This document shows positions 1-6,317 of a stretch of DNA of 6,514 nucleotides, piece by piece (position 1 is the stretch's first letter; the number at the start of each line of letters is the position of its first letter). The notes beneath the pieces are model-generated. The model was not told where the DNA came from. It saw only the letters and a list, made by a program, of their open reading frames with translations, and searched no databases. The stretch is from the IMG/VR virus record IMGVR_UViG_2737471834_000003; one strand, given 5' to 3'. The position numbers were made by a program, and so were the translations under genes. The stretch comes from a virus (lineage: Duplodnaviria > Heunggongvirae > Uroviricota > Caudoviricetes).

Positions 1-291
1 GTTCTCCTGGCTGTCACGCCAGCGACTGATTTCACCGTATTTCTGATTTCTGGCCTTTTCCAGTATCTCCTCTGTCACCACAAACGGCGTGACCTCACCC
101 CAGGCCCCTGATATCAGCCCTGACCAGAGCCTTAACCCGAATTCTGTCGGGTCTGAAGCTCTGGCAGTATAAGGTACATATACCCGATGACTGTCATCAG
201 AACGGTCTGCCATGAACACCTCACAGGTAATGCTGCCGTCTTCATTAAAACGGGCATTGCGGACGTCCGCTTCTGAATTCCTGGTATCCAT
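1..291 (-). CDS. Unidentified ORF immediately downstream of the side tail fiber, 5' part only (97 codons, continues past window start); candidate tail fiber assembly/chaperone protein by position
   Basis: Hand translation of the minus strand from the ATG at 291..289 gives an open frame of 97 codons to the window edge ([41 protein letters not shown]...); the other two minus frames hit stops within ~130 nt. The ATG overlaps the stf TAA stop by one base (TAATG), with GAGGG 8 nt upstream. Absent from the ORF track because its stop lies outside the window. No similarity to lambda Tfa that I can recall; function assigned by synteny only. Confidence 0.5.
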   Translation of the reverse strand, partial: MDTRNSEADVRNARFNEDGSITCEVFMADRSDDSHRVYVPYTARASDPTEFGLRLWSGLISGAWGEVTPFVVTEEILEKARNQKYGEISRWRDSQEN

Positions 292-2012
292 TATTTCACC
301 CTCAGAAAAAGCATTTTCTCTTCAGCTTCTGCATTTCCGCAGGCCATCCATATTCCTGACTGTACCGGGTCAAGCCGCTCTCCGGCCAGTTCATCTCCGT
401 AACTTACCGCATCCTGAGAAGCACAGAACAGGTAACTCCCCACACCACCGGCTACCGGACGACCGGCAAACTGCCACCATGAAGTGGTACCCAGCCCACT
501 GTAAGCCCTGGTGAATGCCTGCCCCATACAGTTAAGGAAAATCTGACCTGAAACATTCTCATTCGTCGGAACCTGCCACATCAGACCATATGCATAATTC
601 CCCGCGGCACCCGGAACGGGGTGGTCTTCACAGGCAAGGTAGTGGTTATATTTCAGCAACGGGAACTGAAGGGCAGAATACATAAAACCATGAGCCAGAA
701 TGCCCGTGAATTTTTTCGCAGTCTTTATCCCGTCTTCCGGGTAAACTCCGCTGGGTCCCATGGGTCCCTGAGGCCCCTGTGGGCCGGTAGCTCCCCGGGC
801 ACCGGTATCACCTTTATCGCCTTTCTCACCTTTTTCTCCCTGAGGCCCGGTATCGCCCCGGTCCCCTTTCTCTCCCTTTTCACCACGGGGGCCCTGTGGG
901 CCGGTCTCCCCCTGCGGTCCGGGCTCTCCCTGTGGTCCTGGCGTTTTTGCAATCTCCCTGGCTTCCTCCAGTGCCTTCAGTGCCCCCTGCTCATGTTCAC
1001 CTGCTGTCGTGGCACTGTCTTCCGCCTGGCTGACCAGTTGCTGCACCTGCCCGGCCTGTAGCTCCACAGACTGGCTTACAGCCACAACACTGTCTGCCAC
1101 ATGCTGAACATTCAGAGCCACGGACTCCGTCTGCGCTTTTATCTGTGCACTCTCTTCTGCACGACTGGCGGCCTCTGTGGCAAAACCCTCTGCCTCATTA
1201 CGTGCCGTTACCGTCTTCTGTAAATCACTGCTTACCTGCCGTGCACTCTGTGCAGCTTCGCTGGCATGCGTCCCCGACTCCACGGCACTGGCTGAAGACT
1301 CACTGGCTGCCTGTTGTGCCTGCTCCAGCAGCCGCTCAGTATCCTGTTTATCCTGCTGAACCTGTCCGGCATTTTCTGCCATTTCTGCAGCCAGTATATT
1401 CACCTGCTGACGCTGTTCTGCCACAACCTCTGCATTTTTCTGCACCGCATCAGCAAGGGTCTGCGTATTATCTCTTGCCTGTGCAGCCTCCACAGCATAT
1501 TGTCCGGCCTCCTGCGCACTTCCGGCTGCAGACTCTGCATTTTTCTGAGACTGCACCTCATAATTCTGCGATTTCCTTTCACTTTCCCGGGCAGCGGACG
1601 CCGATTCTGCCGCTGCCGCGGCGTCTGCGCCTGTTGCCTCCTTATCACGGGTAACCTGCTCAGACAGCGTAATAACGGTATTCACCATTATCTCAAAGCG
1701 TTTCATCACCTCAGGGCGCAAATCGCCATCTTTGGGAGCATCCAGAAATGCATTCAGCGTATCCGGCTTATCCGTCGGTGTGACATAAATCTCACCGGCT
1801 TTTACCGGAGCCCACCCTTCACGGAGAAGAAAAACATCATAAAATCCTGGCTCGGCTTCGATTAAATACCGCCCGTTACTGTCCGTAATACATTCCGCCA
1901 CAATGTGCACAATCACCGTCGGACTCGTTTTTCTGGACCGCAATTCAATTGAACACGCCTGCACCGGTTTACCCGCACCGTCTTTCAGTACACCAGATAT
2001 CTGTACGGCCAT
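291..2012 (-). CDS. stf: Side tail fiber protein (lambda Stf-like N-terminal domain, Ala/Gln-rich rod, collagen-like Gly-X-Y repeats, unrecognised C-terminal domain), 573 aa
   Basis: Track ORF 291..2030 (-). Residues 7-125 of the track protein ([18 protein letters not shown]...[12 protein letters not shown]) resemble the N-terminus of lambda Stf as I recall it ([18 protein letters not shown]...RPEALRRFELMV). I place the start at ATG 2012..2010 rather than the track's TTG at 2030 because GGAG lies 6 nt upstream of the ATG and the lambda homologue begins MAV. It follows J directly, as stf does in lambdoid phages. Confidence 0.85.
747..938 (-). repeat. Collagen-like repeat: 21 uninterrupted Gly-X-Y triplets within stf, including an imperfect ~45-bp tandem duplication
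   Basis: Track residues 365-428 read [64 protein letters not shown], with glycine at every third position. On the plus strand, units beginning ggtatc at ~804 and ~849 (period 45) align at roughly 60% identity. Confidence 0.85.
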
Positions 2013-2060
2013 ATACACTCCATAAGTCAATGTCAGCCCCGGAAGAGAGGATTCAGGAAT

Positions 2061-2090
2061 AACAATAAAAAAGGCGCCATTTCTGGCGCC
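2061..2090 (-). terminator. Rho-independent terminator-like hairpin downstream of J (minus strand)
   Basis: Minus-strand sequence GGCGCCA-GAAA-TGGCGCC (7-bp perfect GC-rich stem, GNRA-type loop; plus 2073..2090) followed directly by TTTTTTATTGTT, and sited 20 nt after the J stop. Confidence 0.7.
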
Positions 2091-2109
2091 AGTATATGGA
2101 TTATAAAAT

Positions 2110-5100
2110 TCAGCTAATCGTGATACCGGCTGTGGATTTTTTCATCACCACAACCAGCAAATCGCTGATACTTGCGGTGGGATACCAGTTATTCACCAGC
2201 CATGCTGACACCGAAAACTCCAGCGTCATGTGGCCGTGACCAGCTGGCATATCAATAACACCACTGTAAATCAGCGTATTATCCAGCGCGGTACGGTTAT
2301 AAATTTCAGCACCATTTTTCTTCACTATCAGGCGGCATGAGGAGTAAATATCAGTATGCTCTCTCTCATGCTTAGCGCCACTGAATGCCACCGCCGGAAT
2401 AACAATTTGCCGGTCAAACGGCTGATCGTCATAAACCCTGACGGTAATGGTCCCTGATGGCCACCGCTCCGGTGCCCGGGAGTCCCGGGGAAAAGCCTTA
2501 CCCACTGTTTTAACAATATCGCCTTCAATCTGGTTGGCTGACAGTTTTCCCAGAATCCGGCAGTTCTCATTTATCGTGACGTTGTTGAGTGTCCCGGAGT
2601 TCGCGTTCACGTTACCGCTGATATCCGCATTTTTCGCCGTCAGCCGCCCGTCCGGAGTCAGGGAAAACGCCGGAGGATTACCGCCACTGGTAATGGTGGG
2701 AGCCGTCAGATATTTCAGGAACACTTCATTCATGAATATCTGATCACCCTGACCAACAAACATCGGCTTTGTGTTGCCATTCGCAGGATTAACCATCGCA
2801 ATCCTGTCCGCCGCCAGCAGCACCTGACTCTGCATGCCGTCAGGGGTGTTCTCAATACCGGCACCAATACCCGCGATATAAAGGCGTCCGTCCTGCATCT
2901 GCTGCAGCTTCACAGCCCACATGCTGTTCAGGTTATTATTTGTATCAACCTGAACCTTCTGTATCTGCTGAATTGCCGCACTCTGGTCTTCCAGTTTCTT
3001 ATTGACGGTCTGCGTGATTTCATTGCTGACATCCGTAATGGACGTCCTGATTTCAGCCAGGTCAGGCGCAAGCTGACCGTTATCAATCTGCGTCCACAGC
3101 TCCTGAGCCAGATGGGTTTTCCCTATCTCGCCTTTGAAAAAATCCAGATAGCCGGATGCATCATCACTCGGCTGACCAACAGCCTCCACGAATGCCGATT
3201 TGCCAACGGTGTTCACACTGCGAACGTAAAAATAATAATCATGGCCCGGTTTGATATTGATACTGGCGGCTATCCAGTACAGCGCCGTGCCAAGATAGCG
3301 GGCTGTGGTTTCAACCTGCCTGATATCGGTAATCCGCTTTTCCGAGAACCAGAACTCAAACTGTACCGTCGGGTCATAAACGGCAAGATGCGGCGTGGCG
3401 GTTATCTGAAAATAGCCCGGCGTCAGCTCAATCCGCGACGGCACTGCAGGTGCGGCAATCCGGAACGATACCGATGCCGGATCGCCCTGCTGCCCCCACG
3501 CATTTACCGCCCGGACTGTCAGCCTGTAGTTCCCCAGCGCCAGCTGCCTGAAGCGGTATGTGGTTTCTGTCGTCCGGGCCGTGCTGACCAGCCGCTCACT
3601 GCCGTCGTCCGCTGCCACGGTCAGGCGAAGCATAAAGCTCACGCCCTTCACCACCTTCGGTGTGTCCCATCGCGCCAGCACCTGATATTCCCCGCTGTCT
3701 GCAGTGACTTCTGCGGTCAGGTGCTGCACCGCTGGCGGCGTGACACCATTCACCGTGCCACTCTGTTCGCCGTCAAAGTGCGCCCCGTTATCCACGATGG
3801 CCTCTTTTTCCGGCACATGCTGCACGGCGGTGATGGCATACGTGCCGTCGTCGTTCTCACGGATACTCACGCAGCGGAACAGGCGCTGGCGCAGCGTCGG
3901 CAGCTTCAGCCCCCATACGCTGTATTCAGCAACACCCTCAGGAACACGGCTCACTTTTACCTTCACGCCGTCGGTGACGGACTGAACCTCCACGCTGACC
4001 GGATTGCCACTTCCGTCAACCAGGCTTATCAGCGTGGTACCGGAGGATGGCAGCGTGATTTCACGGTCGAGCGTCAGCGTCCGGGTCTGGCTGTTCACCG
4101 CCAGCACACGACCACCGGTGCTGATACCGGCATAGTCATCATCGCAGATTTCAATAACATCGCCCGGTACATGGCGAAGCCCTTCTGCGCCGACGCTGAA
4201 ATCCACGGTCTGCGTCTCCAGCAGCTCCGTTTTAATCAGCCACAGCCCGGCGCGGTGTGCCTGCCCCCGGCTGGTACAGCCAAAGGCATCCATCTTCGTA
4301 ACATTACGACCGTAACGGGCAATGGCCTGCGTATCTTCAACAAGCTCTGTCGCCGTCTCCTGGCCGTTGTTCGGGTCAATCCAGTTCACCTCAACGGCAT
4401 TATGGCGGTCTTTCAGGGCGCTGAAGCTGTAGCGGAACGGCGCGCCATCATCCGGCATCACCACATTACTGCGGTTATAGGTCCACGCCTTATCCGATGG
4501 CCGGTCCTGCACGAACGTCAGCGTCTGCCCGTTCCATACCGGCATACAGCGCATCGCCGAGCAGAAATCACTGAGCACATCCCACGCCTTACGTTGTGTG
4601 GTCAGCCAGGCATTACAGGTGATGCGCGGCTCCGTGCCGCCAAAACCGTCCGGCACTGACTGGTCGCAGTACTGGCCGATGACATACAGCGCCCATTTAT
4701 CCACATCTGCCGCACCAAGACGTTTCCCCATGCCGTAGCGCGGGTGGGTCAGCATATCCCACAGACACCAGGCCGGGTTGTTGCTGTATGCCGGTTTTAA
4801 CGTTCCGTCCCAGATACCGCTGTATTGCCGCGTCTGCGGGTTATAGTTCGACGGAACCTGCAGAATACGACCACGAAAATGGTAAGTGCGGTTCACCTGC
4901 TGGCTGCCGAACTGCTCAGAATCCACCTGCACACCGACCAGTGCCGTGTTCGGGTAGCACTGTTTCACATCGATGATTTCGGTGTATGACGACCAGAGCG
5001 TTTTGTTCTGCAGCTGATCTGTGGTGCTGTCCGGCGTCATCCTGCGCATCCGGATATTGAACGGGCGCGGCGGCAGGTTACCCACCACCACCGATGCCAG

Positions 5101-5589
5101 ATACTGTGAGGTGGTTTTGCCTTTAATGGTGATGTCTTTTTCCGTCACCCAGCCACCGTTACGTTGTATCTGAACCAGCAGGCGGACTTCCGACGGATTC
5201 CGGTCCCCCTTTGAGGTGGTTTCCACCAGTGCCTGCACACCGAAGGTCAGGCGCAGACGGTCGATGTTTGCCGACGTGATGGTCCGGGTTATCGGCGTGT
5301 CGTATTTCACTTCCGCACCCAGTACCGTCTCGGAGCCGGAGGATTCAAACCCCTCCGGCGGTGTCTGCTCCTGTTCACCGGAACGGAACACCACCGTGGC
5401 ACCGGAAAAGTTGGTATTCCCCCCGCTGTCCAGTACCGGCGTACCATTCAGGCGGACACTTTTCAGCCCGTCAACCGGACCATAAACCGGTCCTTCACTG
5501 ATGGCGTCAATCACACTCAGCAACTGGGAGGATTTCAGGTTATCTCTGGCTTCACGGGGCGTATGCGCCTTACCGCCACCTTTACCCAT
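2110..5589 (-). CDS. J: Tail tip / central tail fiber host specificity protein J, 1159 aa
   Basis: Track ORF 2110..5592 (-). The protein ([34 protein letters not shown]...) is near-identical over long stretches to lambda gpJ as I recall it ([34 protein letters not shown]...), colinear for ~820 residues and then diverging. Start placed at ATG 5589..5587 (the track's first M is a GTG at 5592), with GGAGAG 3 nt upstream of that GTG. Confidence 0.97.
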
Positions 5590-5602
5590 CACTTACTCTC
5601 CA

Positions 5603-5645: not shown

Positions 5646-6317
5646 TCAGCGACCAATCACCACTACCTGACCGCCGCCCCCCTCATCAGCCGTGCTGATT
5701 TCCTGTGAAATCACCCGCGATCCCACGAGCATTTCACCGTACAGAACCGGCAGAACATTGCCCTGGGCAACCATGTTATCCAGTGAGGAAAAATAGGTAT
5801 TCTGCTTACCGTTATCCGTTGTCTGCATGCGGGGCGTTTTCGGTTTCGGGGCCAGCATCTGCGCCACACCCCCCAGAATCATACTGGCACCGAGAGAAAA
5901 CAGGATACCGGTCATACCACCGGCCCCAATGGCTGCCCCCCATGCTGCAAGGGTGGCTCCGGCAGTAAAGAATGATCCGGCAATGGCGGCAGCCCCCAGA
6001 ACAATCTGGAATACGCCCCCTGACTTAGCCCCGGCGACTCTGGGAACAATATGAATCACAGCGCCGTCAGGCAGAGTCTCATGTAACTGCGCCGTTAACC
6101 CGGACGTGCTGACGTCCCGCCCGGCAATCCGTACCTGATACCAGCCGTTGCTCAGTTTCTGACGAAACGCAGGGAGCTGTGTGGCCAGCGCCCGGATGGC
6201 TTCTGCCCCCGTTTTCACACGCAGGTCGATGCGGCGGCCAAATCGTTGCAAATCCCCGTAAAGGCAGATGCGTGCCATGCCCGGTGACGCCAGACGGAGT
6301 GTGTGCGTCGCTGCCAT
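5646..6317 (-). CDS. I: Tail assembly protein I, 223 aa
   Basis: Track ORF 5646..6317 (-). The protein (MAATHTLRLASPGMARICLYGDLQRFGRRIDLRVKTGAEAIRALATQLPAFRQK...) has the same length as, and is almost identical to, lambda gpI as I recall it. Its ATG at 6317..6315 lies inside the 3' end of K, as in lambda. Confidence 0.95.
   Translation of the reverse strand: MAATHTLRLASPGMARICLYGDLQRFGRRIDLRVKTGAEAIRALATQLPAFRQKLSNGWYQVRIAGRDVSTSGLTAQLHETLPDGAVIHIVPRVAGAKSGGVFQIVLGAAAIAGSFFTAGATLAAWGAAIGAGGMTGILFSLGASMILGGVAQMLAPKPKTPRMQTTDNGKQNTYFSSLDNMVAQGNVLPVLYGEMLVGSRVISQEISTADEGGGGQVVVIGR

What the first reader, a model, noticed from the sequence alone, without database searches (positions are those of the whole stretch)
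291..2012. Mosaic side tail fiber: lambda-Stf-like N-terminal domain fused to a different rod and distal domain
Only the first ~120 residues resemble lambda Stf, the part expected to dock the fiber on the tail tip. The remainder is an Ala/Gln/Glu-rich low-complexity segment (~951..1643), a collagen-like segment (747..938) and a ~150-residue C-terminal domain (294..746) I cannot place. This architecture suggests domain shuffling at the host-range determinant.
Basis: partly seen in the sequence, partly recalled or inferred. Interest (0 to 1): 0.55.

Follow-up and report, generated by a model that had tools for sequence, protein, structure and literature searches.

The report
Collagen-shafted prophage side tail fibre
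This gene encodes a side tail fibre of a lambda-like E. coli prophage, assembled from exchangeable modules (tail-docking domain, coiled-coil and collagen shaft, uncharacterised receptor-binding knob with its own chaperone gene); it is a new member of an already described class rather than a new kind of thing.

Summary
The gene (291-2012, minus strand, 573 aa) follows gene J in a lambdoid prophage tail module. Residues 1-113 are 50% identical to lambda Stf and match the solved Ur-lambda collar domain. Residues 101-358 form an unbroken heptad coiled coil, the same kind of element as lambda Stf's proximal rod. Residues 359-421 are 21 Gly-X-Y triplets. Residues 423-573 form an all-beta knob with no Pfam or PDB sequence match; its predicted fold resembles distal domains of phage receptor-binding proteins. 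This PfN / coiled coil / collagen / variable C-terminus layout is the published EPcl class of E. coli prophage collagen-like fibres (Ghosh 2012). The N-domain plus about two thirds of the rod is shared with Stf fibres carrying other tips. The distal rod, collagen and knob are shared with a different set. The knob family sits on lambda-, T7- and P2-type fibre scaffolds and was followed by a DUF4376 gene (the chaperone type tested in Alteromonas phage V22) in every context with readable downstream sequence, directly in nine of ten. That gene starts at the fibre's stop codon here. The receptor is unknown. Verdict: new member of a known kind, modest interest.

The parts
291..2012 (-). Side tail fibre gene (573 aa; stop at 291-293)
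   Evidence: ORF. SD plus ATG. Annotated 'prophage tail fiber N-terminal domain-containing protein' in the 8 matching E. coli genomes. The exact protein occurs in 10 contigs. dN/dS against close alleles is 0.12-0.32.
1638..2012 (-). PfN / collar domain plus linker (residues 1-125): docks the fibre on the tail
   Evidence: Pfam PF08400, E 3e-40. 50% identical to lambda Stf 1-113. Matches PDB 9e7m/9mgh, the Ur-lambda Stf collar domain, over residues 1-92, E 1e-21. DNA similarity to other E. coli stf genes (72-77%) stops at 1638.
939..1712 (-). Continuous heptad coiled-coil shaft (residues 101-358; 'PCoil')
   Evidence: 3.5-residue periodicity power 5.84 against 0.56 +/- 0.27 in shuffles, 0 of 500. 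Residues 150-290 are 40-55% identical to the rods of Stf-type fibres P0049/P0052/P0057. The equivalent region of EPclA was shown experimentally to be a trimeric alpha-helical coil (PMC3368898).
933..986 (-). Conserved coil-to-collagen joint [18 protein letters not shown] (residues 343-360); candidate recombination joint
   Evidence: The motif is present in 22 of 162 fetched relatives, 20 of which also carry the knob motif. It occurs on PfN-type and T7-type scaffolds.
747..938 (-). Collagen triple-helix segment, 21 G-X-Y triplets (residues 359-422)
   Evidence: Regex count. Pfam PF01391, E 1e-15. 9- and 18-bp tandem repeats in the DNA. A frameshifted allele broken inside this repeat exists elsewhere (P0044).
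294..746 (-). C-terminal all-beta knob (residues 423-573), the presumed receptor-binding domain. The last ~35-50 residues are a conserved terminal element.
1..291 (-). 5' part (97 codons) of the DUF4376 gene, the presumed cognate fibre chaperone. Its ATG overlaps the fibre's stop codon by 1 nt.
   Evidence: Translation. The full 203-aa gene is seen in L004-L008 with Pfam DUF4376, E 1.5e-19, and PHROG 1141. DUF4376 proteins are tail-fibre chaperones in Alteromonas phages V22 and A5 (PMC7289586, PMC10579305).
2063..2090 (-). J-stf intergenic joint: terminator-like hairpin (2073-2090) with a T-run. Homology to the widespread J module ends at 2063.
   Evidence: Hairpin with 7 pairs, 6 of them G-C, followed by TTTTTTATT. 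Megablast matches in more than 4,600 E. coli genomes and in phages stop at 2063.

Best explanation
The gene encodes the side tail fibre of a lambda-like siphovirus prophage of E. coli.

Proposed mechanism:
1. By homology with Ur-lambda Stf, three chains form one fibre.
2. Their N-terminal beta domains (residues 1-~92) join a 12-subunit collar around the tail-tube / tail-tip junction.
3. A short linker leads into a ~258-residue trimeric coiled coil, then a 63-residue collagen triple helix. Using textbook rises per residue, these span roughly 38 + 18 nm.
4. The shaft ends in a ~130-residue all-beta knob that makes the first, reversible contact with a surface receptor. That receptor is still unknown.
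5. The downstream, translationally coupled DUF4376 protein is the knob's intermolecular chaperone or transient cap.

The gene is a recombinant of exchangeable modules. PfN plus the proximal rod is one module. The distal rod joint, collagen, knob and chaperone gene form another.

Shown here: the domain identities, the heptad and G-X-Y periodicities, the synteny, the modular distribution and the co-variation of knob and chaperone. Inferred: trimer state, collar docking, receptor binding by the knob, and the chaperone role.
For: - Position: directly after K-I-J in a lambdoid tail module.
- N-terminal domain: matches Pfam PfN and the solved Ur-lambda collar domain. The collar and coiled-coil architecture is described in PMC12617516.
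- Shaft: heptad periodicity, 0 of 500 shuffles reach it. 21 G-X-Y triplets. EPclA, with the same layout, was shown to be a trimer with a collagen helix, a coiled coil and a dumbbell shape (PMC3368898).
- Modularity: the knob family occurs on PfN, T7-type (PF03906) and P2-type (PF12571) N-termini.
- Chaperone linkage: a DUF4376 gene follows in all 10 contexts where the downstream sequence could be read, directly in 9, and after one inserted opposite-strand gene at P0008. The P0007 contig and locus L014 end too early to tell.
- Co-variation: knob and chaperone identity matrices correlate, Mantel r 0.80, p ~6e-4, for 9 pairs.
- Published chaperone role of DUF4376: V22 gp27 is essential for active fibres.
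- Selection: purifying, dN/dS 0.12-0.32.
- Allelic variation: concentrated in the collagen and the N-terminal two thirds of the knob, while PfN and the rod are almost identical.
Against: - No experiment bears on this protein or any member of its knob family, and the receptor is unknown.
- No isolated phage in the 50,697-record collection carries this fibre or knob, so assembly into virions is unproven.
- In one prophage that carries the identical fibre, gpM is only 44% identical to lambda gpM. One of the three gpM contact residues reported for the collar (W6) is not conserved.
- Co-variation of knob and chaperone could reflect linkage alone.
Confidence: 0.8

Rival explanations
1. The knob is only an adaptor or trimerisation module. 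The true adhesin is the DUF4376 protein, which stays bound at the fibre tip in the way T2 gp38 does, or the 'tail fiber adhesin' gene that follows the collagen fibre in Stx2-86.
For: - PHROG 1141, which the DUF4376 protein matches at E 8e-72, is labelled 'tail fiber protein'.
- Stx2-86 gp21, a collagen fibre, is followed by a gene annotated 'tail fiber adhesin'.
- The Alteromonas work proposes that such chaperones may remain as transient caps.
- PfC of EPclA is a trimerisation module.
Against: - The published experimental role of DUF4376 proteins is as a chaperone.
- The DUF4376 half of the protein is not especially variable. Mean pairwise identity is 45-52% in both halves.
- The allelic hot-spot lies in the knob, not in the chaperone's 5' end.
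- The knob's fold neighbours are receptor-binding domains.
Confidence: 0.12
2. The gene is a relic in a defective prophage and makes no functional fibre. Its mosaic look is just decay and patchwork.
For: - One carrier genome has an IS66 insertion in the tail module.
- A frameshifted allele exists (P0044).
- Lambda's own laboratory stf is frameshifted.
- No isolated phage carries the gene.
Against: - The ORF is intact with a good SD.
- It is identical in 10 contigs from different assemblies.
- dN/dS is 0.12-0.32.
- Full tail modules flank it in L002 and L004-L006.
- The start of the chaperone gene is coupled to its stop codon.
Confidence: 0.05
3. The collagen-plus-globular-head layout is a C1q/BclA-like module aimed at eukaryotic (host animal) ligands rather than a bacterial receptor.
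For: - A collagen stalk followed by a ~140-aa head mimics the C1q and BclA layout.
- BclA (1wck) appears in the PDB sequence hits, and one relative is labelled 'BclA protein' by its source.
- The carrier strains with a stated host are bovine or buffalo.
Against: - The BclA hit covers only the collagen repeats, residues 360-424.
- Gene position, PfN collar domain and chaperone all point to a virion fibre.
Confidence: 0.03

Closest known systems
EPcl proteins (EHEC prophage collagen-like proteins A-D; Ghosh et al. 2012, PMC3368898), especially the EPclC* example EC55989_1078 of E. coli 55989
   Same: - Same order of parts: PfN, Ala-rich coiled coil (PCoil), collagen, then a C-terminal domain.
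- Same genomic slot after J in lambdoid prophages.
- EC55989_1078 sits at the same chromosomal site (beside hyaA) and is also followed by a DUF4376 gene.
- Its last ~35 residues match the end of this knob's profile, hhalign probability 86%.
   Different: - There is no PfC (PF06820) domain, so it is not EPclA or EPclB.
- The EPclD example Stx2-86 gp21 ends in an unrelated C-terminal region. By eye it looks like an S74-type intramolecular chaperone, but this was not tested.
- The coiled coil is about twice as long (233-258 aa against 88-116) and is richer in Gln and Val.
- The knob carries an extra ~80-residue beta region that the short 55989 C-terminus lacks.
Lambda (Ur-lambda) side tail fibre Stf with its chaperone Tfa
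   Same: - The N-terminal collar domain is homologous: 50% identity, and a PDB 9e7m/9mgh match.
- A long trimeric coiled coil follows it.
- Same position in the late operon.
- A small assembly gene follows the fibre gene.
   Different: - There is no significant sequence similarity beyond residue 113.
- It has no Pf2 repeats, no gp37-like distal domain and no His-rich tip.
- It has collagen plus a beta knob instead.
- The partner is a DUF4376 protein rather than a Caudo_TAP Tfa.
- There is no lom gene between J and stf.
- The receptor therefore need not be OmpC.
Alteromonas phage V22 gp26/gp27 and A5 gp8/gp9 (tail fibre plus DUF4376 chaperone; PMC7289586, PMC10579305)
   Same: - A DUF4376 gene lies immediately downstream of the fibre gene.
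- Fibre tip and chaperone are shared as a unit between phages of different morphotypes.
   Different: - Similarity between the fibre proteins themselves was not tested.
- Hosts and phage types differ.
- The chaperone requirement is untested here.
R-type pyocin fibres (PDB 6cl5, 6cl6, 6cu2) and Staphylococcus phage RBPs (5efv, 9euf)
   Different: - Only 10-16% identity, with partial overlap.
- No sequence-level relation.
- Their ligands cannot be transferred to this protein.

Membership tests
Lambda Stf-type side tail fibres (phage_tail_N family, PF08400) | N-terminal PfN domain above Pfam's gathering score | tested here: met
   137.7 bits against a cut-off of 26.6, residues 1-132.
Lambda Stf-type side tail fibres (phage_tail_N family, PF08400) | Homology to the solved collar domain of Ur-lambda Stf | tested here: met
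   PDB 9e7m/9mgh chain, residues 1-92 aligned to 1-92, E 1e-21. 50.4% identity to lambda orf-401 over residues 1-113.
Lambda Stf-type side tail fibres (phage_tail_N family, PF08400) | Gene lies just downstream of J in a lambdoid tail operon | tested here: met
   K-I-J-stf order in the window and in L001, L002 and L004-L009.
Lambda Stf-type side tail fibres (phage_tail_N family, PF08400) | Twelve N-domains form a collar at the gpV/gpM junction; four trimeric fibres per virion | not testable with these tools
   Needs virions or multimer modelling. Of the three gpM contact residues reported, K2 and R80 align with the same residue in the gpM of a prophage carrying the identical fibre, and W6 aligns with Leu.
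EPcl collagen-like prophage proteins (Ghosh 2012) | PfN, then a heptad Ala-rich coiled coil, then a (G-X-Y)n collagen domain | tested here: met
   Class definition.
EPclA/EPclB subtypes | C-terminal PfC domain (PF06820) | tested here: not met
   No PF06820 hit at E<=1.
EPclD subtype (Stx2-86 gp21) | C-terminal region like that of Stx2-86 gp21 | tested here: not met
   tblastn of the knob against all phage records, including Stx2-86, found nothing at E<=10 from that phage. The gp21 C-terminus reads as a different domain.
EPclC* subtype (EC55989_1078) | C-terminal region like that of EC55989_1078 | tested here: inconclusive
   Only the last 35 profile columns align (hhalign probability 86%, E 5e-6). 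The preceding ~80 residues of the knob have no counterpart.
DUF4376-chaperoned tail fibres (V22 gp26/gp27 type) | DUF4376 gene immediately downstream of the fibre gene | tested here: met
   The ATG overlaps the fibre's stop codon. Pfam DUF4376, E 1.5e-19.
DUF4376-chaperoned tail fibres (V22 gp26/gp27 type) | Fibre needs the chaperone to fold or become active | not testable with these tools
   Indirect evidence only: co-occurrence in all 10 contexts with readable downstream sequence, and co-variation with Mantel r 0.80.
C1q/TNF-like or BclA-like collagen-headed proteins | C-terminal jelly-roll head of the C1q/TNF fold | tested here: not met

The most novel reading that the evidence does not exclude
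The ~130-residue knob and its DUF4376 partner form an unnamed, horizontally mobile receptor-binding cassette. It plugs onto sipho-, podo- and myovirus fibre scaffolds through a conserved 'EIAKTPGP' joint. It is held together by a conserved C-terminal element (G-x-x-V-A-G-x-x-L ... P-G-T-W ... F-x-R-I/V) that serves as the chaperone's docking site. The window carries a deep-branching, rare lineage of this cassette: at most 45% identical to any other cluster, and present in 8 of 5,426 complete E. coli genomes, with bovine or buffalo hosts wherever a host is stated. This lineage would recognise a receptor not yet used by any studied coliphage.
Probability: 0.35. Interest if true: 0.45.

Novelty: new member of a known kind. 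Interest (0 to 1): 0.25.

Why it matters
Side tail fibres set the first contact between temperate phages and their hosts. They therefore shape which E. coli strains can receive prophage-borne genes. This locus adds little conceptually, because modular tail fibres and collagen-like prophage fibres are well described.

It does offer three practical things:
- It pins down a compact, unannotated knob family (no Pfam model) that always travels with a DUF4376 chaperone and occurs on three different fibre scaffolds.
- It suggests where the swap joints lie.
- It shows which part of the knob varies between alleles.

These points are useful for annotating receptor-binding proteins and for engineering fibre chimeras (lambda, pyocins, phage-based delivery) aimed at livestock-associated E. 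coli.

Tried and rejected
- AlphaFold2 on the knob without an alignment gave pLDDT 35 and was discarded.
- The word-indexed protein search with the knob found only its own 97% cluster. The exhaustive HMMER search was needed to find the family.
- Megablast of the gene and tblastn of the knob against 50,697 phage records found nothing useful beyond the N-domain.
- An exact look-up of the protein's cluster returned 'not in the collection'.
- Profile-profile comparison of the knob family with the tips of P0049/P0052-type fibres was not significant (probability 2%). I therefore do not claim that all DUF4376-partnered tips share the terminal motif. Only the 55989 EPclC* tip does, at 86%.
- I expected a C1q/BclA-like head from the collagen-plus-head layout. 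The fold search rejected it.
- NCBIfam hits to Scl and Lcl collagen adhesins lie far below their cut-offs and reflect G-X-Y repeats only.
- The PHROG alignment that runs through the rod was not taken as proof of homology to lambda's rod, because composition-corrected BLAST to lambda Stf stops at residue 113.

Full report
WHAT IS THERE

The window is a 6,514-bp E. coli contig (JUDC01000028.1, reversed). It carries, on the minus strand, the end of a lambdoid tail operon:
- a partial K (C40 peptidase);
- I at 5646-6317 (the longest ORF; homologues are annotated from a later start as 190 aa);
- J (2110-5592);
- the gene in question (291-2012, 573 aa);
- the first 97 codons of a further gene (1-291).

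Between J and the fibre gene lies a terminator-like hairpin (2073-2090, followed by a T-run). Unlike lambda, there is no lom gene here.

THE FOUR SEGMENTS

(i) Residues 1-132 match Pfam phage_tail_N (E 3e-40). Residues 1-113 are 50.4% identical to lambda Stf, and nothing beyond that aligns once composition is corrected. Residues 1-92 match the solved N-terminal domain of Ur-lambda Stf (PDB 9e7m/9mgh, E 1e-21). In that structure twelve such domains form a collar at the gpV/gpM junction. Each of four fibres is a trimer whose residues 102-393 form a coiled coil (PMC12617516).

(ii) Residues 101-358 are not merely low-complexity. Small and hydrophobic residues recur with an exact 3.5-residue period (power 5.84 against 0.56 +/- 0.27; 0 of 500 shuffles). 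This is an unbroken heptad coiled coil, the 'PCoil' that Ghosh et al. showed to be a trimeric alpha-helical domain in EPclA. The rod is therefore the same kind of element as lambda's, not a different one.

(iii) Residues 359-421 are 21 G-X-Y triplets.

(iv) Residues 423-573 have no Pfam, NCBIfam or PDB sequence match.

THE C-TERMINAL DOMAIN

An exhaustive HMMER scan of 1.84 billion cluster representatives found 25 hits. Beyond the knob's own 97% cluster, 18 of them have E<=1.2e-20 at 37-45% identity. The domain is always at the extreme C-terminus, in proteins of 131-667 aa.

With an alignment of these sequences, AlphaFold2 gives a confident all-beta model. Mean pLDDT is 85.6, and the C-terminal half is above 90. 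The first ~20 residues are low-confidence and look like a neck.

THE PARTNER GENE

The fibre's stop codon overlaps the ATG of a 203-aa protein with a C-terminal DUF4376 domain (E 1.5e-19). A 125-aa DUF1353 protein follows, and then the prophage ends.

DUF4376 proteins are the tail-fibre chaperones of Alteromonas phages V22 and A5. V22 gp27 is essential for producing active fibres. They have also been proposed to act as transient caps (PMC7289586, PMC10579305).

THE CASSETTE

Knob-family members sit on three non-homologous N-terminal anchors: lambda-type PfN, T7-type (PF03906) and P2-type (PF12571). They occur in siphovirus, podovirus-like (SU10 adaptor) and P2-like myovirus contexts.

In all ten contexts with readable downstream sequence a DUF4376 gene follows the fibre gene. 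Nine times it follows directly. Once (P0008) it follows after an inserted opposite-strand gene. Two further contexts were uninformative, because the P0007 contig and locus L014 end too early.

Pairwise identities of knobs and chaperones co-vary (Mantel r 0.80, p ~6e-4, 9 pairs). The window's knob and its chaperone are both about 37-45% identical to all the others, so this is a deep, separate lineage.

WHERE THE JOINTS ARE

Three scales of comparison give consistent answers.

At the DNA level, more than 4,600 E. coli genomes and many lambda-like phages match the J module, but only down to position 2063. Only 8 of 5,426 complete genomes carry the rest.

At the protein level, residues 1-~290 align at 50-55% with Stf-type fibres of 517-801 aa that continue into other C-terminal tips, three of them via Pf2 repeats (P0049, P0052, P0054, P0057; P0063 aligns over 1-232 at 59%). 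Within these alignments PfN is about 80% identical and the rod 40-55%. Residues 270-573 instead align at 39% with collagen-plus-knob fibres whose N-domains are only 33-35% identical (P0045, P0019). The exchange point is therefore in the distal rod, next to a conserved joint, [14 protein letters not shown] (residues 343-360). That joint recurs on PfN and T7-type scaffolds.

Among near-identical alleles, PfN and the rod (window 900-2030) are almost invariant. Differences pile up at 450-900 (distal collagen and knob residues ~371-521) and in the C-terminal part of J. The last ~50 knob residues and the chaperone's 5' end are again conserved. Overall dN/dS is 0.12-0.32, which indicates purifying selection.

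RELATION TO THE KNOWN CLASS

PfN / PCoil / collagen / C-terminal domain is the EPcl architecture (PMC3368898). This protein lacks PfC (PF06820), so it is not EPclA or EPclB. The EPclD example Stx2-86 gp21 has an unrelated C-terminus.

The EPclC* example EC55989_1078 lies at the same chromosomal site beside hyaA and is also followed by a DUF4376 gene. Its short C-terminus matches the last 35 columns of the knob profile (G-x-x-V-A-G-x-x-L ... P-G-T-W ... F-x-R-I; hhalign probability 86%, E 5e-6). That points to a conserved terminal element, plausibly the chaperone-dependent trimerisation or docking piece. The preceding ~80 residues would then be the variable, specificity-bearing part. This last step is inference. 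A similar-looking motif in P0049-type tips, whose genes are also followed by DUF4376, was not statistically supported.

MECHANISM AND RIVALS

The best-supported reading (0.8) is a trimeric side fibre:
- a collar-docking N-domain;
- a ~38-nm coiled coil plus ~18-nm collagen shaft (lengths from textbook rises per residue, my inference);
- a receptor-binding beta knob matured by the DUF4376 chaperone;
- built by modular exchange.

The rivals are:
- the DUF4376 protein as the real tip adhesin (0.12);
- a non-functional relic (0.05);
- a C1q/BclA-like host-directed head (0.03).

The receptor cannot be named from these data.

VERDICT

It is a new member of a known kind, and interest is modest.

Noticed in passing
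window 2110-3190 (J, last ~360 aa): J is 94-99% identical to lambda J over residues 101-800. It then drops to 36%, 75%, 53% and 32% in successive stretches of the last 360 residues. DNA matches to lambda-like phages end at 2489, and matches to another prophage group end at 2063. The central fibre's receptor-binding end is therefore also a swapped module and need not bind LamB. Close alleles differ most here too, with 20-24 differences per 150 bp at 2100-2400.
   Followed up: partly
window 2063-2109: There is a strong terminator-like hairpin (GGCGCC-AGAAAT-GGCGCC plus a T-run) between J and the fibre gene, and no lom gene. Lambda, E. coli 55989 and loci L016, L027 and L028 all have lom in this position. 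The widespread J-module homology ends right after the hairpin.
   Followed up: partly
window 725-952 (alternative frame) and protein P0044: Another E. coli genome carries a 394-aa allele, 95% identical up to residue ~368, that shifts frame inside the collagen repeat and terminates. The collagen-coding DNA has 9- and 18-bp tandem repeats, which may make it prone to slippage.
   Followed up: partly
L004:12326-12703, L016:5964-6362 (downstream of the window): The DUF1353 gene after the chaperone is 83% identical between this prophage and L016. The knob and chaperone next to it are only 37-45% identical. This marks another mosaic boundary. PHROG 1158 labels the family 'tail assembly chaperone', and its role is unknown.
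   Followed up: no
E. coli genomes H1-H8: All carriers with a stated host are ruminant-associated (dairy water buffalo, Bos taurus twice, cattle). The other four give no host. Strain GXU-23-25-310 has two copies. Flanking genes differ between carriers (dusA, the sit operon, the hya operon), so the cassette sits in different prophages.
   Followed up: no
window 3112-4659 (+): A 515-aa ORF lies antisense to J. It sits wholly inside a conserved, well-supported gene and is most likely a by-product of J's codon composition. It was not examined further.
   Followed up: no
L024 and L025 (relatives P0012, P0005): In P2-like myovirus tail modules, a PfN-like collagen fibre with this knob follows the regular P2-type fibre. 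L025 carries two fibre-plus-DUF4376 pairs in tandem. The 'lambda' collar domain therefore also occurs in non-siphovirus contexts.
   Followed up: no
L004:4010-4351 (gpM of a prophage with the identical fibre): This gpM is only 44% identical to lambda gpM. Of the three lambda gpM residues reported to contact the Stf collar, K2 and R80 align with the same residue and W6 aligns with Leu. The docking surfaces may have co-diverged with PfN.
   Followed up: partly
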